A DNA stretch of 64,000 bases, taken from assembly GCA_963826885.1 (NCBI GenBank), contig CAWGYL010000002.1, positions 129,756 through 193,755 of the forward strand, given 5' to 3'. The notes under the pieces were generated by a model. It searched no databases. It was not told the DNA's origin and saw only the letters and a list, made by a program, of their open reading frames with translations. The DNA comes from Nitrospirota bacterium. GTDB taxonomy: Bacteria; Nitrospirota; UBA9217. Positions 1 through 57,414 of the stretch are shown piece after piece. The translations under genes and the position numbers were made by a program. Each line of letters opens with the position of its first letter. Positions within the stretch are counted from its first letter, which is position 1.

Positions 1-371
1 TCGGTCTTTAACTTTTTTATCAAGCAAATTTATCGATTTAATGGGAAACACCACTTACATGATAAAATCATGAATGTTTAGAAATCTCTTTGCTACGCAG
101 AAAGCCCCACGGGCATTTAGGCCTATTTATAATCTACGTTTAACCTAAAGGTAGCACTGCCTCTCTGATTGTCAAGCCGAGAAAGCATTTTAAATCAGGA
201 ATAGGCATAAATAGTGTATGGCAAAAGGTGGCCTCCGTTTCAATAGTTTTTCTACAAACATTTCTCCTGATTTACCGTGGCGAACAATTTATCCTCCCGT
301 GATCATAACGTGACCTTCGCATGATATCTTTCATACAGTTAACGAGAATGCATTGCGAAAAAGGTGATAAA

Positions 372-734
372 ATGAATAGAGCATTTTTCGCGATATCCGG
401 TGTGCTGCTTCTTCTTGCACTCTTCTCACTGTTCCTGTATTCGGGCGCGATGACTGGCGCTGCGACTTTGTTCCCCGTTCCTGGATACGGGACAAACCAA
501 GCACAGGAGAAGGGATTGTCAATAGTGATTTTCAAGGTCAAGTGTTATGAAGAAGGAAAGGTGGCACTCCAAGGACTAAATGGAATCCAGAAAATCGAAA
601 CGGGCTTTCATGACGTTCAGGAGACAGATACTGTTTATTACGATCCGAAGGTGATCACGATCGAAGAGATGGAAACGGCCTTGAAGAAGGCGGGAACGTA
701 TGTGGAAACAATGAAGAAGAAAGAGAGGAATTGA
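372..734 (+). CDS. Membrane-anchored protein with a heavy-metal-associated (HMA)-like ferredoxin-fold domain that has a single Cys, not CxxC
   Basis: N-terminal TM segment ([17 protein letters not shown]), then a beta-alpha-beta-beta-alpha-beta-like segment [26 protein letters not shown]...[12 protein letters not shown]. An RBS-like aaaggtga precedes the ATG at 372. The stop overlaps the start of the msrA fragment, so the two are translationally coupled. A degraded paralog sits upstream of the intact msrA at 57418-57530. Confidence 0.4.
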
Positions 735-964
735 TCATGTTTGTGAAATTGTTGATAGGAACATTGCTGGTTCTGCCGCTCATGGTTACCCGAGCCAATG
801 CAGGCACAATGCCGCCTGTTGAAAAAGCAACATTCGCGGGAGGGTGCTTCTGGTGCATGACCCCGCCTTTCGAGAAACTGGACGGAGTAAAAGAGGTCGT
901 ATCCGGCTACACCGGCGGGCATACCATCAATCCCACCTATAGTCAGGGTTTGGCAATTCTTTAA
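731..964 (+). pseudogene. msrA: Truncated peptide methionine sulfoxide reductase MsrA, N-terminal ~70 aa only
   Basis: Signal peptide plus [11 protein letters not shown]...GV..V.SGYTGG...NPTY, aligning with the full-length paralog at 56803-57414. Homology ends after NPTY and the ORF stops at 964. An IS110-family transposase gene lies immediately downstream. Confidence 0.6.
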
Positions 965-999
965 AAACCGACAGGCATCACGAACAATCCAAAATCGGG

Positions 1000-3395
1000 T
1001 AGGAGGCGGGATTACTCCCGCCGTCCTCCCACACCACATACTATAACGCTCCTGTCAAGAAAAAGATTCAATTTGCTTTTATTCAATAGGATAACTTGAT
1101 CAGTATATTAAAAACGCACCTCTCTCTTTCGGCATTTACGCCGTTATCACTTTTATCGACGAGTCTCTCGCAACCAGACGAACGACATCTCTGATAGTTA
1201 TGTCACCTATGCGGCGTGCCATATGGCCGCCAAGAATACCTTATCCAGATTCTATCGTTCAAAACGAGAGGCCCTGTATTGTAGGTGACGAGGTCAACTG
1301 CCCTCAACTAACTTGAGCACGGGCTCTCCCGTCGAAATAAATTTTGCGTACACCATTATGCGGCTGCTTTTCGTTCTACCCGCTTTTCCAGTTTAAGGTA
1401 TTTCGAGTCGAAAGATTCCTTCTTTTTCATCAGCGTCCAAGCAATAATCAAGAGCTTCGCGGCGAGCTTCACCCTCATTTTCGTGGCAATGCCTTTCTCC
1501 TTCGCCCGTCCAGCAAGCTTATTCGTAAAATAGGGAATAAAGTCCTTACTCTTAATCGAGGCAATGAACGCTGCCTGGTATAACGCGCACCGCAGATCCG
1601 CCTTGCCCTGTTTGGAGATGATCGGCGTTGCCCTGTTTGACGTTCTTCCGCTTCTCTGTGCGCAAAGATCAAAACCCGCCAACCGCAAAACCTGTTTGCC
1701 GCTTGTAAAGCGGTGGGGATCGCCGATGGCTCCGAGGACCTTGGCGGATACATCCGGCCCAAACCCAGGAATGCTCAAGAGGTACGTATACTCCGGAAAC
1801 TCAAGACAGGCATTCTCAAGCTTGTCTTCAACCGCTTTGATCTCCTGCCTAACCTGTTTCAAACTATCTACTGCAATCTGAGCTTCATGGAAGGCCGCCT
1901 CTCCCATGGTGCAGCCAACGGAATTGACCGCGGTCCTCCAAATCGCTCCCACTCTGCGTTCCCGAGCCAACGTCATTTTGCCTGGTGCTACGGTACGGCA
2001 GAAATCATCGTATTCCATGCCGGCGATAGCGGAAGGATCCAGACATTCCCGCACTACCGCCAGGGTCTCTGACGATCCGTAGTACGTATCCAACTCAGGG
2101 AAATACTGTGCAAGGATATGATTGCGAATATACGCGCTTATGCCGTGTTCCCGCTTCTTCAGTCGCCGCTTGACTGCGTTTAGTACGCGCACGTTTTGAA
2201 GCGTCATCAGGGGATATTCATAAAACATGCATTTCCCCTGTGCAATGAGATCTGCGATATTAGCCGAATCCTTGTCATCGTTTTTATCCCATCGACCGTT
2301 CAGAAGTTGCCGGTTGTTCTTTACTGCCATACCGCCAACAAAAACGACCATCAGACCGCATTTGAGCAGATGCTCCGCCAGGGGCTTGTGGTAGTCTGCC
2401 GTCGGCTCGATCCCGAAAACGACTTTCGGCAGGCTGTATTGAACCTTGACACGCTCCACATGCGCATCCAGCTTTTCGAATCCCTCGATCGTGTTGTCAA
2501 AGATCACATTCCTTAAAAGCGTCTTGCCTTGCGCAGTACCAAAAAACGCACGGTGCTTCTCTTTCGCCACATCAATCCCAATGATCAAATATTCTTCCGA
2601 ACCACGAATTTCTTTCTTCAGTTGCCGAAATTGCTGAAGTCTGATATCATCAATACAGTTCATAGAAGCCTCCTGCCCTTGAATTTAGTTTCGTCATAAA
2701 CTAATTCTTAGCAGGAGGTTTCTATTTTGGATAGTCTTGAAGAAAATATTTCCTATACTTTAATGGGGAAATATAACCTCATGCTCTATCCATATATAAC
2801 ACGTACGTGCCGTTCGGCATACGGCGGTTCCTGTCTTTCCGCTCTTTCGGTGACCTTGTCGCCTCCTGTTCTATAAGCACCTGACTTTACCTCGCGGATT
2901 CCGTCCGCTACTTCCAGCCTAGGCCCTCTTGCGGGGCTTGTGCTCAGTACAGATAGAGATTCGGTCTCGAACAGTCCGACAAGTTCGGCCCTTCATCCCG
3001 TTGGTGCGGGACTAATACGGCCTCTGCTGACTTCTACCGATCCATCTCAACACCTTACGATGTCGATAGCACATGGCAGAACGGCAGACCTCCCAGGGTA
3101 AGACGCATGACCTTCATCCCATATACCCGCCGCATCTACTTCCACACCTTCCGGATGGTTATCGGGCTTTGAGTCTTTATGCCCTCTCGCCCAAGTGTGG
3201 CTGCCTCATATGCGGTTTCTGTTCGTCAGGCCGGGACTTTGCTTACAGCTTCCTTCAGATTCCGGGTCGCCCCGGACACCCTTGCTGTTCGGCTAACGGT
3301 TCCTCCCATCAAGGCCCATAAAGGACTTTCACCTTCGAGTCGCCAGTCAGTTACCAATCTGACCAGCCTGTAAAATACAGAGCGTCATGCCTGGC
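1000..3395 (-). mobile_element. IS110-family insertion sequence; ends not determinable from sequence alone. It may cover only part of this span
   Basis: The transposase gene is flanked by about 390 bp of non-coding DNA on its 3' side (965-1355) and about 730 bp of ORF-free DNA on its 5' side (2664-3395). It abuts the truncated msrA. IS110-family elements lack terminal inverted repeats, so boundaries cannot be read directly. Confidence 0.35.
1356..2663 (-). CDS. IS110-family (DEDD) transposase
   Basis: N-terminal IIGIDVAKEKH and a DKNDDKDSANIADL motif. C-terminal LLSIPGFGPDVSAKVLGAIGDPHRFTSGKQVLRLAGFDLCAQRSGRTSNRATPIISKQGKADLRCALYQAA is typical of the IS110/IS1111 C-terminal domain. RBS ggagg lies 6 nt upstream of the ATG. 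Confidence 0.85.
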   Translation of the reverse strand: MNCIDDIRLQQFRQLKKEIRGSEEYLIIGIDVAKEKHRAFFGTAQGKTLLRNVIFDNTIEGFEKLDAHVERVKVQYSLPKVVFGIEPTADYHKPLAEHLLKCGLMVVFVGGMAVKNNRQLLNGRWDKNDDKDSANIADLIAQGKCMFYEYPLMTLQNVRVLNAVKRRLKKREHGISAYIRNHILAQYFPELDTYYGSSETLAVVRECLDPSAIAGMEYDDFCRTVAPGKMTLARERRVGAIWRTAVNSVGCTMGEAAFHEAQIAVDSLKQVRQEIKAVEDKLENACLEFPEYTYLLSIPGFGPDVSAKVLGAIGDPHRFTSGKQVLRLAGFDLCAQRSGRTSNRATPIISKQGKADLRCALYQAAFIASIKSKDFIPYFTNKLAGRAKEKGIATKMRVKLAAKLLIIAWTLMKKKESFDSKYLKLEKRVERKAAA

Positions 3396-3398
3396 ATA

Positions 3399-3440
3399 CA
3401 TAAAAAAGTGCCAATTCTTCTCGGAATTGGCACTTTTTGT
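3399..3440. terminator. Bidirectional rho-independent terminator hairpin
   Basis: aaaaaagtgccaattc-ttctcg-gaattggcacttttt: a perfect 15-bp stem with T-runs on both strands, located downstream of the minus-strand gene that ends at 3532. Confidence 0.6.
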
Positions 3441-3531
3441 GGTCATGTCTGCCCGCATACGAAGCCTGATCACGTTAAATCACTCTACAAGCATCTCAGA
3501 CCCCGTTTAAGAACGGATCGCTACCAATTCA

Positions 3532-3990
3532 TTACATGTGGTGCTCATGGCCCATGGGCATTTCGCTTGCCCCCTGAAGGGTAATTGGTAGTTCCTTCAC
3601 TCCCGTTTTCTCGAAGACCAGCGTCACGTTGAATTTCGAACCTACCGTCATTGTCATAGGCATGTCCTGGATCATGATATGGCTGCCGCCCATCTTTAAT
3701 TCCAGATTGCTTTTCGCGGGGACTTCTATCGTGTTCATATTTACCATGCGTTCACCTTGCATGACATGGAACGAAGCTTTTGCTCCCGGTATGTCAGTCT
3801 TTACTTCCTTGAGAACATCCGATCCACCTTGATTCCTAATATTCATGGTCACCATAGCTTCTCCCATGATAGCAGGAGACAATTCGGCATTGACCCCGTC
3901 AATGCTGATCTGCGGCGGACCGCTCTGGCATGAAGCAAGGATCATGGTGGTTACGAACACGGATATTACCAATAGCTTTGATTCCCTCAT
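3532..3990 (-). CDS. Lipoprotein, copper chaperone PCu(A)C-like (DUF461-like), with a Met/His-rich C-terminus
   Basis: Lipoprotein signal (ILASC) in a ~150-aa protein. Spaced Met/His motifs (HVMQGERMVNM...HIMIQDMPMTM...MPMGHEHHM) resemble the H/M copper-binding motifs of PCuAC. A TlpA-like redoxin is encoded two genes away. Confidence 0.5.
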   Translation of the reverse strand: MRESKLLVISVFVTTMILASCQSGPPQISIDGVNAELSPAIMGEAMVTMNIRNQGGSDVLKEVKTDIPGAKASFHVMQGERMVNMNTIEVPAKSNLELKMGGSHIMIQDMPMTMTVGSKFNVTLVFEKTGVKELPITLQGASEMPMGHEHHM

Positions 3991-53317: not shown

Positions 53318-54346
53318 TTAGTTCGTCCGCAGCAAACTTGCATCATAAGGTTTTCGGTCACGAAGCACGTAAAAGATAATCTCTATCAATTTTCTTGCTA
53401 ATGCGACTACTGCAGTCTTGTTGCCTCTTCTCCTGGCTATACGTTCATACCATTTCCTCAATGGTTTGCTTTCACTGTTTGTACTTCGTAATATTGCATG
53501 CGCACTCTGAACTGCTACGTGCCTGACTTCGCTTCGTCCCTCGCGGGTTATATGGCCATAATCAGCCCGCTCTCCACTACTAAACACACTTGGCACAAGA
53601 CCGCAATAACTCGTTAACTGCTTTGCTCGCTTGAATCGCGTTATGGTCGAGATCGCGGCATAATAGGTCTTGGAGGACACCTCGCCGACTCCGGGCACGC
53701 TCTTCAATAACGCAACATCCTTATTTTGGTAGTCCGCAATCACGTCATCCAGCACGTCTTTTTGCTTTCGGAGCTCTGCAATCGCTTTCCCATAACTCTC
53801 AACGATTGGATTTAGGTGTTTTGGAACGCTTTTATTCTCCTGGAGCCTTGTAAAGATCGATTCATCATCGAAAGCTTTTGTCTTGAGTTTTATTCCTTCT
53901 TGTCGCAACATGCCCCGTAGATGGTTCTTAAGGCATGTTGAACTCTTTAAAAGTTGGTGTCGAGAGCGTAAGAGATCGCGTAACTCTCGGCTATCGCCCT
54001 CTGCCATATACACTCTTTCGGGCAATTCGTCTATCCGTAATAATTTTGCAAGGAATATGGCATCTACCTTGTCGGTCTTCTTCTTGTTCTTGGCAATGAG
54101 CTTTACCTTGTTAGGATTAACAATATAAACGCTGATTCCCAGCTTCTTGAGCGTATCATGTATCCAACGGCTATGGCCGCCTGCCTCGACTGCTACCTTT
54201 ACAGGCTTATTCATCCATCGCTTGAAATACTGCCGATAGCCATCCTTATCCGTAGGGATCTCTTGGCTCTCGACCTTTCTTCCTTTGCCATCGGTGACGT
54301 ACACATAACTGCTTTTCTCAGATACATCGCATCCAATGTAGAACAT
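53318..54346 (-). CDS. IS110-family (DEDD) transposase, second copy, a different family member from 1356-2663
   Basis: FYIGCDVSEKSSYV N-terminus, KTDKVDAIFLAKL, and C-terminal LKSVPGVGEVSSKTYYAAISTITRFKRAKQLTSYCGLVPSVFSSGERADYGHITREGRSEVRHVAV. RBS aaggagg 7 nt before the ATG at 54346. Confidence 0.85.
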   Translation of the reverse strand: MFYIGCDVSEKSSYVYVTDGKGRKVESQEIPTDKDGYRQYFKRWMNKPVKVAVEAGGHSRWIHDTLKKLGISVYIVNPNKVKLIAKNKKKTDKVDAIFLAKLLRIDELPERVYMAEGDSRELRDLLRSRHQLLKSSTCLKNHLRGMLRQEGIKLKTKAFDDESIFTRLQENKSVPKHLNPIVESYGKAIAELRKQKDVLDDVIADYQNKDVALLKSVPGVGEVSSKTYYAAISTITRFKRAKQLTSYCGLVPSVFSSGERADYGHITREGRSEVRHVAVQSAHAILRSTNSESKPLRKWYERIARRRGNKTAVVALARKLIEIIFYVLRDRKPYDASLLRTN

Positions 54347-54665
54347 GGCGGCTACCTCCTTACTGTGATATTTGTTACTTCTAATCACATGGTAGCACCG
54401 AATATTTGTTTTCCCCCTCCTTCATAATATCTACAAGTATGGAATGTCACCCATTTGAAGGCTCCCTGTCAAGTGAAAAAATTACCCCGTGACGAGAAAA
54501 TGATATTTTCTCGAGTGGAGGTGTTTGATCGTCTGGAGTTTGATGTTGATGTGAAGATACGTATCTTCAAAGATGAAAGGCCGTAGCTCTGCCTTTTCCC
54601 GGCGCTCTTTGACGTGGCAAAAAAAAACGTCAAGGGCAGTCAAGCAGATCCTATTAGTCGTACTG
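54347..54665 (-). ncRNA. Candidate bridge-RNA-encoding left end of the IS110-family element. Inference only
   Basis: About 320 bp of ORF-free sequence immediately 5' of the transposase gene, the position where IS110-group elements encode their non-coding guide (bridge) RNA. No structure was computed. Confidence 0.25.
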
Positions 54666-56802: not shown

Positions 56803-57414
56803 TTAATGTCCCGCCTCATTACCCCAAAGTTCCTTAAGCCGCCGGTCACGACCGCACGTGGTACGATAAAATTTATAACGAATCGGGTTCTTCTTGTAAT
56901 AATGTTGGTGGTAATCTTCGGCGGGGTAGAACCCGGTGGCTTGCACAATTTCTGTTGCTATAGGTTCTTTAAAGGTCTTATTCTTCTCCAAAAGCGCCTT
57001 TGACTGCAATGCCAACTGATGCTGTTCTTCTGTGTGATAAAAGATTGCACTTCGATACTGATGTCCTGAATCACAGAATTGGCGGTCTTGAGCTATTGGG
57101 TCAATATTATGCCAAAAAACCTTCAGGAGTTTCTCATATGACACTTTTATCGGGTCATAGACGACCTGAATTGACTCGGCGTGTCCGGTCCCTCCGGCTG
57201 AGACCTCTTCATATGTCGGGTTCTTTTTCTGTCCACCTGTATAGCCGGATGTGACCGATACCACACCAGGAATCTCATCAAAGGGGTGTTCCATACACCA
57301 GAAGCATCCGCCCGCAAAGGTCGCTTTTTCAAGATGTGGCACACTGCCTGCGGTGACCCGAGTAACCACGAACGGCAGGACCAGCAATGTTGCCATCATT
57401 AATTTGTCGAACAT
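56803..57414 (-). CDS. msrA: Peptide methionine sulfoxide reductase MsrA, secreted/periplasmic form with signal peptide
   Basis: Signal peptide, then [12 protein letters not shown] (catalytic Cys), SGYTGG, and the full MsrA fold through ...AEDYHQHYY. 203 aa. Confidence 0.9.
   Translation of the reverse strand: MFDKLMMATLLVLPFVVTRVTAGSVPHLEKATFAGGCFWCMEHPFDEIPGVVSVTSGYTGGQKKNPTYEEVSAGGTGHAESIQVVYDPIKVSYEKLLKVFWHNIDPIAQDRQFCDSGHQYRSAIFYHTEEQHQLALQSKALLEKNKTFKEPIATEIVQATGFYPAEDYHQHYYKKNPIRYKFYRTTCGRDRRLKELWGNEAGH

What the first reader, a model, noticed from the sequence alone, without database searches (positions are those of the whole stretch)
2664..3395. Roughly 730 bp of ORF-free, structure-rich DNA 5' of the IS110 transposase: candidate bridge RNA or other structured ncRNA
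IS110-family elements encode a ~150-250-nt bridge RNA in the non-coding end next to the transposase gene. Here the transposase start at 2663 is followed by an unusually long ORF-free stretch running to the bidirectional terminator at 3399. It contains several GC-rich hairpins, including a hairpin at 2801-2831 (minus-strand CCGUAUGCCGAACGGCACGUACG) that resembles a group II intron domain V. Non-coding DNA also lies on the other side of the gene (965-1355). Either the element carries an extended non-coding left end, or remnants of another structured RNA element lie here.
Basis: inference. Interest (0 to 1): 0.5.

Follow-up and report, generated by a model that had tools for sequence, protein, structure and literature searches.

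The report
IS110 element splits group II intron
The flagged non-coding stretch is mostly the first 600 bases of a small, protein-less group II intron that an IS110-type insertion sequence has cut in two inside its catalytic hairpin; the insertion sequence's own guide (bridge) RNA lies on the other side of its transposase gene, so this is two ordinary kinds of mobile DNA, one nested in the other.

Summary
All elements are on the minus strand.

- **Intron, 3399-2801:** domains I-IV and most of domain V of an ORF-less class C (IIC) group II intron. Rfam gives 147 and 67 bits. It sits just after the terminator of the PCuAC gene.
- **IS left end, 2800-2664:** only the 137-nt left end of an IS110-family insertion sequence (2800-1036). 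Related IS copies share nothing beyond 2800.
- **Rest of the intron, 1035-994:** the end of domain V, domain VI and the 3' end follow the IS.
- **Empty site:** a metagenome contig (L187) carries the same intron uninterrupted and is 100% identical across the junction. The 1,763-bp IS therefore went in at a GT core, in the strand that pairs with the catalytic triad.
- **Bridge/seek RNA:** it is not in the flagged region. It lies downstream of the transposase (about 1335-1156). It is a two-loop RNA with strong covariation, and its loop sequences match the flanks and ends of about 30 related copies.
- **Unexplained point:** the window copy's own guide does not match its site. Related copies show the guide module being exchanged by recombination, which is the most likely cause.

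Verdict: new members of known kinds, with modest interest.

The parts
3403..3438 (-). Intrinsic terminator hairpin of the PCuAC gene (3990-3532). It is the 5' exon of the intron. Its U-run end UUUAU (3404-3400) serves as IBS1.
   Evidence: RNAfold gives a 15-bp stem at -19.8 kcal/mol. Relatives of the intron all start right after such hairpins plus a T run.
2801..3399 (-). 5' segment (599 nt) of an ORF-less group IIC intron. It starts with GUAUG at 3399 and covers domain I with a lineage-specific ~40-nt insertion, the EBS1 loop AUAAA at 3180-3176, domains II-IV (only 152 nt where relatives carry the RT gene), and domain V from 2827 up to the extra U at 2801.
   Evidence: RF02001 at 3276-3102 scores 147 bits and RF01998 at 3069-2988 scores 67 bits. 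It is 72-78% identical to ORF-containing relatives L083, L171 and L160. EBS1/IBS1 pairing is shown. No IEP is found by tblastn.
1036..2800 (-). IS110-family insertion sequence. It spans 1,765 bp counting the GT at both ends, so 1,763 bp were inserted. The left end starts GTTATATAT and the right end finishes TTGACA-N17 ending in ...TATAGTATGT.
   Evidence: Homology to 80 relatives is bounded at 2800 and 1036/1031. Both ends are conserved in 40 complete copies. The empty site L187 is 100% identical on both sides.
2664..2800 (-). IS left end. It holds the TATATA at 2798-2793, which would be the -10 of a promoter formed on the circular junction with TTGACA at 1058-1053. It also holds a conserved anti-SD (2720-2711) / SD (2676-2666) helix that encloses the transposase ribosome-binding site.
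   Evidence: Alignment A3 of 29 copies keeps the helix in all of them. The fold is -29.2 kcal/mol. The junction promoter is inferred from sequence and from PMC11187229.
1356..2663 (-). Transposase gene, 435 aa, DEDD/RuvC-like, IS110 family. The ORF is intact.
1156..1335 (-). Bridge/seek RNA gene in the IS right end. The target loop has the left guide plus core TGCTCAAGTTA-GT (1319-1306) and the right guide GTCACCT-AC (1289-1277). The donor loop spans 1252-1232 and 1212-1188. The enclosing stems are 1335-1330/1161-1156 and 1269-1261/1172-1166.
   Evidence: RNAalifold on 33 copies gives 38 pairs, 24 with compensatory changes. 94.6% of cells are paired, against 36-49% when partners are slid, and 0/500 shuffles reach this. 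Guides match flanks with 0/20000 permutations reaching the observed value. The donor guide base covaries with the IS end in 35/35 copies.
994..1035 (-). 3' segment of the intron. It holds the last two pairs of domain V (GG 1035-1034), the linker, domain VI (1030-997, GUAA loop, bulged branch A at 1000) and the 3' end ...CGAU at 994.
   Evidence: 100% identical to L187 59-100. The same D6/3' end consensus CCUACYCGAU appears in about 120 relatives. RF00029 on L187 scores 37.2 bits.
731..946 (+). Context: a truncated msrA holding only the first ~72 codons, convergent with the intron. The 47 nt between it and the intron 3' end (947-993) are of unknown origin.
   Evidence: Pfam PMSR covers profile positions 1-41 of 153. 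tblastn places the fragment at 719-946 and an intact paralogue at 57333-56884.

Best explanation
Two mobile elements are nested here, both on the minus strand.

1. A small ORF-less class C group II intron, 643 nt when reconstructed, sits immediately after the terminator hairpin of the PCuAC gene. This is the usual home of this intron class. Its EBS1 loop AUAAA pairs with the last bases UUUAU of the 5' exon. Having no reverse transcriptase of its own, it must have been placed by a protein supplied by a related intron (inferred).

2. An IS110-family insertion sequence then integrated at a GT dinucleotide inside domain V. It went in between the extra U at 2801 and the GUGG that pairs with the catalytic CGC triad. 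The first 599 nt of the intron therefore lie upstream of the transposase (the flagged region). The last 42 nt lie 1.76 kb away, beyond the IS. Split this way, domain V cannot form, so this intron copy is almost certainly dead (inferred).

3. The IS works like other IS110/IS1111 elements. A roughly 180-nt RNA is encoded downstream of the transposase. It has one internal loop that reads the target flanks and another that reads the IS ends, around a GT core. A TTGACA at the right end and a TATATA at the left end would make a promoter only on the excised circle. A conserved helix hides the transposase ribosome-binding site.

4. The guide now carried by this copy predicts the target CTCAAGTTA-GT-AGGTGA, not the domain V site. 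The most likely reason is that the 3' guide module was exchanged by recombination with a sister copy after insertion. Insertion guided in trans by another copy's RNA is the next possibility.
For: **Intron**
- Rfam hits.
- Relatives carry the same D1-D3, a 465-477-aa RT ORF in D4, and RF00029-positive D5/D6.
- All relatives follow terminators, and EBS1 covaries with IBS1.
- There is no IEP in the window.

**Nesting**
- IS homology is bounded at 2800/1036.
- The empty-site contig L187 is 100% identical to window 2856-2799 and 1038-991, with a single GT.
- The occupied junction (L203) occurs in the same metagenome as L187.
- 16 other complete IS copies have no intron nearby.

**Guide RNA**
- Alignment, covariation and permutation tests.
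- The segment order (bottom-strand match first, then top-strand complement) and the downstream non-coding region agree with PMC11187229.

**Guide exchange**
- L204 and L205 are the same locus. They have 2 mismatches in 2,359 nt of flank and the IS is identical for its first ~1,250 nt.
- They differ over the tnp 3' end plus the guide RNA. L205's guide matches the flank. L204's guide does not, and it is the same allele as the window's.
- The window IS is itself mosaic: its 5' part is closest to L046 and its guide region is closest to L204.
Against: - No RNA or activity data exist. Transcription, processing and protein binding of the guide RNA are inferred.
- The intron deviates from the consensus. 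It starts GUAUG rather than GUGYG, has an extra U in domain V that drops RF00029 to 37.2 bits (GA 40) in the uninterrupted copy, and has a 40-nt insertion in domain I. It may have been a poor or dead ribozyme even before the IS arrived.
- The window copy's guide matches its flanks in only 2/9 and 3/9 positions. No relative with a guide matching the domain V site was found. The route of insertion is therefore not shown.
- L187 starts inside the intron, so the 5' half of the second copy was not seen.
Confidence: 0.88

Rival explanations
1. The flagged region encodes the IS110 bridge RNA, or is an unusually long IS left end.
For: IS110-type elements often carry the guide RNA upstream of the transposase (PMC11187229). 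The region is structured.
Against: - Related IS copies share nothing beyond 2800.
- The left end is 135-154 nt in nearly all complete copies, and its only conserved structure is the anti-SD/SD helix.
- Guide-like loops with flank and end matching lie in the right end.
- The empty site L187 shows that 2801 and upward is intron.
Confidence: 0.02
2. The intron and the IS form one functional composite, like an IStron, in which the ribozyme removes the IS from transcripts or the IS uses intron domain V as a habitual safe-haven target.
For: Domain V is highly conserved and multi-copy, so it would make a good target. The insertion is exact at a GT core.
Against: - The IS lies inside domain V and destroys the helix that carries the catalytic triad. 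It does not sit inside a dispensable loop.
- None of 16 other complete IS copies is near an intron.
- None of 122 occurrences of the same domain V half is followed by the IS end, and there are none in viral contigs.
- No family member's guide matches the domain V site.
Confidence: 0.04
3. The IS reached domain V by a non-cognate route: either off-target recombination needing little more than the GT core plus GGTG, or guidance in trans by a sister copy's RNA. On this view the present mismatch is original, not the result of later guide exchange.
For: - The window guide matches its flanks in only 2/9 and 3/9 positions.
- The right flank GGTG resembles the guide-specified AGGTG shifted by one base.
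- The guide-encoding non-coding region works in trans in experiments (PMC11187229).
Against: - Across the family the flanks match the resident guide (0/20000 permutations).
- At one locus the guide module is seen to have been swapped in situ (L204 vs L205).
- The window IS is mosaic exactly over that module.
- Only one guide RNA gene exists in the 64-kb window, although the rest of the genome is unseen.
Confidence: 0.3
4. The region is the decayed remainder of a protein-coding gene.
For: It holds several 40-82-aa ORFs.
Against: None has a Pfam match. The whole stretch is accounted for by covariance-model hits and by homology to introns. No remnant of the intron RT is present.
Confidence: 0.01

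Closest known systems
Bacterial class C (IIC) group II introns, such as O.i.I1 of Oceanobacillus iheyensis and B.h.I1 of Bacillus halodurans (PMC1702495, PMC4748821, PMC4424553)
   Same: - It sits directly after an intrinsic terminator hairpin and has a short EBS1-IBS1 pairing.
- The ribozyme is compact.
- Domain V has a CGC triad, a 2-nt AC bulge and a GAAC loop.
- Domain VI has a bulged A, and the 3' end is ...AU.
- The match of the domain V sequence to O.i.I1 is from my memory of that sequence, not from a tool.
   Different: - It has no RT gene in domain IV.
- The 5' end is GUAUG. Some relatives have GUACG.
- It has one extra U in the 3' strand of domain V and a 40-nt insertion near the start of domain I.
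- It is now interrupted by an IS.
ORF-less bacterial group II introns mobilised in trans by the protein of a related intron (reviewed in PMC4424553)
   Same: It is a protein-less ribozyme with at least two copies that are 100% identical over the ~100 nt compared: the window copy (also seen as L203) and L187, which has a different 3' exon. Contigs break inside it as they do for a repeat.
   Different: The helper intron and its protein were not seen in the 64-kb window. Activity is untested.
IS110-family bridge RNA / seekRNA systems: IS621 and ISEc21 (IS110 type), ISEc11 and ISPa11 (IS1111 type) (PMC11187229)
   Same: - It has a DEDD transposase.
- A ~180-nt two-loop RNA matches both target flanks and both IS ends around a 2-nt core.
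- There is no target duplication beyond the core.
- The -35 and -10 elements are split between the two ends.
- Guide order is bottom-strand match first, then top-strand complement, as in the IS110 type.
   Different: - The RNA is downstream of the transposase gene. That is the IS1111 habit, noted as an exception in some IS110 groups.
- The transposase is 435 aa.
- No Rfam family recognises the RNA.
- The window copy's guide does not fit its own site.
Twintrons and IStrons (mobile element nested in, or fused to, a self-splicing intron)
   Same: One mobile element lies inside a self-splicing intron.
   Different: The inner element is a DNA transposon with no means of splicing itself out, and it interrupts the catalytic helix. 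In IStrons the ribozyme flanks the IS and removes it from the RNA. Nothing suggests that here.

Membership tests
Group II intron (class IIC) | Ribozyme core of domains I-IV recognisable by covariance models | tested here: met
   RF02001 scores 147.4 bits (GA 32) and RF01998 scores 66.8 bits (GA 35), both full-length on the minus strand.
Group II intron (class IIC) | Contiguous domain V (catalytic triad, 2-nt bulge) and domain VI (bulged A), as in RF00029 | tested here: not met
   There is no RF00029 hit in the window at E<=1, because the IS splits domain V. The uninterrupted copy L187 scores 37.2 bits, E=3.4e-6, just under GA 40, with the extra U as an insertion. Relatives L104, L128 and L145 score 48 bits. 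The reconstructed sequence folds as D5 plus D6.
Group II intron (class IIC) | 5' end GUGYG and 3' end AY | tested here: inconclusive
   The window starts GUAUG. Relatives start GUGCG, and four relatives start GUACG. The 3' end ...CGAU agrees with about 120 relatives.
Group II intron (class IIC) | Insertion just downstream of an intrinsic terminator, with a short EBS1-IBS1 pairing | tested here: met
   The hairpin at 3438-3403 plus a U run precedes 3399. The AUAAA loop (3180-3176) pairs with UUUAU (3404-3400), and loop and exon covary in relatives.
Group II intron (class IIC) | Intron-encoded reverse transcriptase/maturase in domain IV | tested here: not met
   The window has 152 nt where relatives have a 465-477-aa ORF. 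tblastn finds no IEP anywhere in the window. It is therefore an ORF-less derivative.
Group II intron (class IIC) | Self-splicing and retromobility | not testable with these tools
   The only indirect hints are a second identical copy with a different 3' exon and contig breaks inside the intron.
IS110-family bridge/seek RNA, as proposed for 2664-3395 | Lies within the IS and is conserved among related copies | tested here: not met
   Only 2664-2800 is IS. 2801-3395 has no similarity in 80 loci, and L187 shows it is intron.
IS110-family bridge/seek RNA, as proposed for 2664-3395 | Two internal loops carrying target and donor guides | tested here: not met
   The left-end alignment shows only the anti-SD/SD helix. 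No k-mer of 6 or more is shared with the site.
IS110-family bridge/seek RNA, for 1335-1156 | Conserved two-loop secondary structure | tested here: met
   There are 38 pairs in 7 helices, 24 with compensatory changes. 94.6% of cells are paired, and 0/500 shuffles reach this.
IS110-family bridge/seek RNA, for 1335-1156 | Target-loop segments match the two flanks of the element around a shared core | tested here: inconclusive
   This holds across the family: own flanks average 5.3/7 and 3.7/5 against 3.3 and 2.8 for other copies' flanks, with 0/20000 permutations reaching the observed value. It does not hold for the window copy itself (2/9 and 3/9).
IS110-family bridge/seek RNA, for 1335-1156 | Donor-loop segments match the IS ends | tested here: met
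   The variable base of the right end, TAG[T/G/A]ATGT, equals the loop base in 35/35 copies, with three states. ATAAC in the loop is the reverse complement of the left end GTTAT.
IS110-family bridge/seek RNA, for 1335-1156 | RNA is made, binds the transposase and is needed for transposition | not testable with these tools
   No expression data. No Rfam family matches it.
IS110 family insertion sequence | DEDD (RuvC-like) transposase with the IS116/IS110/IS902 C-terminal domain | tested here: met
   PF01548 (E=1.5e-18) and PF02371 (E=2e-17). NF033542 scores 152.3 bits against a cutoff of 140.
IS110 family insertion sequence | Site-specific insertion with no duplication beyond a short core, and defined conserved ends | tested here: met
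   Comparing the empty site with the occupied site shows 1,763 bp inserted at a GT. Both ends are conserved in 40 copies.

The most novel reading that the evidence does not exclude
An intact IS110-family element sits at a site that its own bridge RNA does not specify, inside the catalytic domain V of a group II intron. At another locus (L204 vs L205) the 3' guide module of this IS lineage has been swapped in situ. If guide modules are routinely exchanged between copies, or used in trans, then target choice in natural IS110 populations is a property of the pool of copies and not of each element. Copies would regularly become stranded at sites from which their own RNA cannot excise them.
Probability: 0.3. 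Interest if true: 0.45.

Novelty: new member of a known kind. Interest (0 to 1): 0.3.

Why it matters
- **Annotation.** The region should be labelled as a split ORF-less IIC intron plus an IS end, not as a bridge RNA. The real guide RNA of this widespread IS lineage (Nitrospirota, Desulfobacterota and others) is defined with its guide positions. This would allow its targets to be predicted and a covariance model to be built, since Rfam does not detect it.
[quoted passage not shown] This one appears to be multi-copy despite an unusual domain V.
- **Guide and flank mismatch.** Together with the in-situ module swap seen in relatives, this is a small natural example of how RNA-guided transposons reprogramme themselves or become stranded.
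- **Limits.** None of this is a new kind of system.

Tried and rejected
- **Second IS110 copy.** Aligning with the second IS110 gene in the window (53318-54388) gave no DNA similarity.
- **Rfam.** At E<=1 over 900-3600 it found nothing for the IS non-coding ends apart from a chance snoRNA hit. Gathering-level scans of 16 related IS loci also found nothing on the guide RNA.
- **Exact transposase look-up.** The protein is not on record.
- **Terminator scan.** The simple scan missed the 3438-3403 hairpin. It was confirmed by folding.
- **Predicted cognate target.** A search of the window for CAAGTTAGTAGGTGA found one 3-mismatch hit, which is chance level.
- **Alternative guide segments.** A k-mer search of both non-coding ends against the domain V site found only a chance-level 8-mer.
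- **Domain V plus IS-end junction.** A scan of viral contigs gave 0 hits.
- **Further guide RNA copies.** nhmmer found only the one in the window.
- **RT remnants.** tblastn with relatives' RT proteins found no remnant in domain IV or elsewhere.
- **Decayed-gene idea.** Rejected.
- **Functional intron-IS composite (IStron-like).** Rejected, because the association is unique to this locus and the IS destroys domain V.
Full report
**What is at the coordinates**

The transposase ORF runs 2663..1356 on the minus strand and is 435 aa. It carries the two IS110-family domains and passes NCBIfam NF033542, 'IS110 family RNA-guided transposase'.

Upstream of it, 2664-3395 has no credible gene. The longest ORF is 82 aa, and five ORFs tested had no Pfam match.

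Rfam places two group II intron models on the minus strand. RF02001 lies at 3276-3102 (147.4 bits, E=1e-30) and RF01998 at 3069-2988 (66.8 bits). No other family passes, and RF00029 (domains V/VI) is absent even at E<=1.

It is the 5' strand, loop and part of the 3' strand of domain V.

**Where the IS ends**

A scan of one genome per species found 154 relatives of the transposase, and 80 were fetched.

- blastn of the whole neighbourhood against them shows homology that starts exactly at window 2800 and ends at 1036 (1031 in the closest relative). Nothing matches 2801-3480.
- Forty complete copies share the ends GTTATATAT... and ...TTGACA-N11-12-TATAG[G/T/A]ATGT, and are 1,704-1,816 bp long.
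- The window IS is therefore 2800..1036. It has a 137-nt left non-coding end and a 320-nt right non-coding end.

Only the first 137 nt of the flagged region belong to the IS.

**The rest is an intron cut in two**

The sequence just beyond the right end of the IS (1035-994, minus strand) reads GGUGUG-GGAGGACGGCGGGAGUAAUCCCGCCUCCUACCCGAU. This is the end of domain V, a domain VI with a GUAA loop and a bulged A, and a 3' ...AU.

- In 115 of 122 occurrences the next bases are GTGG..., followed by a domain VI ending CCTACYCGAT.
- One locus, L187 (Ga0209517_10004965), is 100% identical to window 2856-2799 and then directly to window 1038-991. Only one GT lies between the two flanks.
- L187 is therefore the empty site. 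The IS is a 1,763-bp insertion at a GT core.
- The pre-insertion sequence was ...GGCACGUACG-U-GU-GGUGUGGG.... The IS separates the domain V 5' strand, with its CGC triad (2826-2824), from the GUGG that pairs with it.

The extra U at 2801 is native to this intron lineage and is not an artefact. It lowers RF00029 on L187 to 37.2 bits (GA 40, E=3.4e-6), whereas relatives with canonical domain V score about 48 bits. The reconstructed D5-D6 folds as expected with a bulged U (-43.0 against -46.8 kcal/mol without it).

**What kind of intron**

The closest relatives with D1-D3 homology are L083, L171, L160, L096, L114 and L104, at 69-78% identity.

- They carry the same Rfam D1-D4 motifs.
- L083 and L104, the two examined, carry a 465-477-aa reverse transcriptase ORF in domain IV.
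- Each starts right after a terminator-like hairpin and a T run.

This is the hallmark of class C introns (PMC1702495, PMC4424553).

The window intron starts at 3399, directly after a 15-bp hairpin (3438-3403) and UUUUUUAU. Its EBS1 loop AUAAA (3180-3176) pairs with the exon end UUUAU. In relatives, loop and exon change together: AAACA/UGUUU, CAAA/UUUG, AUAA/UUAU.

It differs from its relatives in five ways:

- The 5' end is GUAUG. Relatives have GUGCG, and four have GUACG.
- A ~40-nt insertion lies near the start of domain I. The distance from the 5' end to AAUCUGAAGGAAG is 138 nt against 98-99 nt.
- Domain V has the extra U.
- Only 152 nt stand in place of the RT gene.
- No RT gene or remnant exists anywhere in the 64 kb.

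It is an ORF-less derivative of 643 nt when reconstructed. [quoted passage not shown]

It appears to be multi-copy. L187 has a different 3' exon from the fourth base onward. The occupied window locus (L203 = window 1-1205, 100% identical) is present in the same metagenome as L187. Public contigs identical to the window stop inside the intron, at 3315 and 3282.

**Where the guide RNA really is**

Aligning the right non-coding ends of 35 copies shows a strongly conserved ~200-nt block just after the stop codon.

RNAalifold on 33 copies predicts seven helices that enclose two large internal loops.

- 24 of 38 pairs show compensatory changes.
- 94.6% of cells are paired, against 36-49% when partners are slid. 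No shuffle out of 500 reaches the observed values.

In the first loop, the 5' side ends in a segment identical to the left flank plus GT. The 3' side holds the reverse complement of GT plus the right flank. Examples:

- L012: GGCTTA-GT and TCTCCAC
- L075: ATAAGC-GT and CATTC
- L054, L074 and L080: 9/9 matches on the left

Matches to a copy's own flanks exceed all 20,000 permutations on both sides.

In the second loop, one base equals the variable base of the IS right end, TAG[T/G/A]ATGT, in 35/35 copies with three states. ATAAC is the complement of the left end GTTAT.

This is the architecture of IS110/IS1111 bridge or seek RNAs. The order (bottom-strand match first) is the IS110 type. The downstream location is the IS1111 habit, and is also noted for some IS110 groups (PMC11187229).

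In the window, the RNA spans about 1335-1156, and its guides are at 1319-1306 and 1289-1277. Rfam has no model that detects it.

The left end (2800-2664) holds only two conserved features:

- the terminal TATATA, which with the right-end TTGACA and a 17-nt spacer would form a promoter on the circular junction (inferred, as shown for relatives in PMC11187229)
- an invariant anti-SD/SD helix (2720-2711 with 2676-2666, -29 kcal/mol)

**The unexplained point**

The window's guides specify CTCAAGTTA-GT-AGGTGAC, but the site is CACGTACGT-GT-GGTGTGG. That is 2/9 and 3/9 matches, and the GGTG is offset by one base.

- No alternative guide-like segment exists in either end.
- No second guide RNA gene is in the window.
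- No family member has a guide fitting domain V.
- None of 16 other complete copies lies near an intron.

Domain V is therefore not a habitual target.

I fetched the closest relatives, at 86-91% protein identity. Nine of twelve copies in this clade fit their flanks. The three that do not fit on the left are the window, L046 and L204.

L204 and L205 are the same chromosomal locus in two assemblies.

- They have 2 mismatches in 2,359 nt of flank.
- The IS is identical for its first ~1,250 nt. Beyond that, the two are 56-93% identical over the transposase 3' end and the guide RNA; the lowest bin lies where the L204 contig ends.
- L205's guide matches the flank (ATGTTT). L204's guide does not, and it is the same allele as the window's (CTCAAGTTA).

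The window IS is itself mosaic. Its first 900 nt are closest to L046 (90-95%). The tnp 3' end plus guide region is closest to L204 (91-95%). L046's left flank (CACAGTT) fits the guide of L207 and not its own.

The best reading is that the 3' guide module is exchanged between copies by recombination, so this copy's guide is unrelated to the site it occupies. Guidance in trans (the non-coding region works in trans; PMC11187229) or an off-target event cannot be excluded. According to that paper, flanks matching the RNA are needed for circle formation, so this copy may be unable to excise (inferred).

**Verdict**

The locus holds new members of two well-known kinds of element, nested, and an intron copy that is almost certainly inactivated. 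Interest is modest. The useful outputs are three:

- a correct annotation
- a defined guide RNA for a widespread, un-modelled IS110 lineage
- a natural example of mismatch between guide and flank, linked to recombination of the guide module

Noticed in passing
window 731-993 (+) and 56884-57333 (-): msrA at 731-946 holds only its first ~72 codons (PMSR profile positions 1-41 of 153), and the rest is missing from the window. An intact msrA paralogue lies at 57333-56884. The 47 nt between the fragment and the intron 3' end (947-993) are of unknown origin, so a deletion or rearrangement happened next to the intron.
   Followed up: partly
window 53318-54665 (-): A second, unrelated IS110-family transposase is present (356 aa, NF033542 249 bits). 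It has a 277-nt upstream non-coding stretch (54389-54665) that could hold a 5'-type bridge RNA. It shares no DNA similarity with the first IS.
   Followed up: no
L204 and L205 (same locus; IS at 2361 onward): Two assemblies of one chromosomal site carry IS alleles that are identical for ~1,250 nt and then differ over the transposase 3' end and the guide RNA. One guide fits the flank and the other does not. The guide module was exchanged in situ by recombination.
   Followed up: partly
L201, L202, L187, L203: Public contigs 100% identical to the window end or start inside the intron (window 3315, 3282 and 2856). These are assembly breaks typical of a multi-copy repeat. L203 (occupied site) and L187 (IS-free copy with another 3' exon, next to a cyanase-like gene) come from the same JGI metagenome, 3300027854.
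   Followed up: partly
window ~3380-3340 (-) and 3399-3395 (-): The intron has a lineage-specific ~40-nt insertion forming two small hairpins near the start of domain I. Its 5' end is GUAUG, and two mismatches fall in the first hairpin relative to all relatives.
   Followed up: partly
L155 and L183 (metagenome loci): Each locus holds two IIC intron copies. In L155 the second starts directly after the ...CUACUCGAUU 3' end of the first, and L183's copies lie ~680 nt apart (junction not examined). L089 and L127 have a duplicated GUGGUGUG between domains V and VI.
   Followed up: no
window 2666-2720 (-): A conserved helix pairs AACCUCCUGC with GCAGGAGGCUU and encloses the transposase ribosome-binding site. 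It is present in all 29 left ends aligned and is probably a translational brake.
   Followed up: partly
window 1355-1347 (-): Directly after the transposase stop codon the IS reads TGGTGTACG. This joins a 6-mer of the right flank (TGGTGT) to a 5-mer of the left flank (GTACG). It is not conserved in relatives and is probably chance.
   Followed up: no
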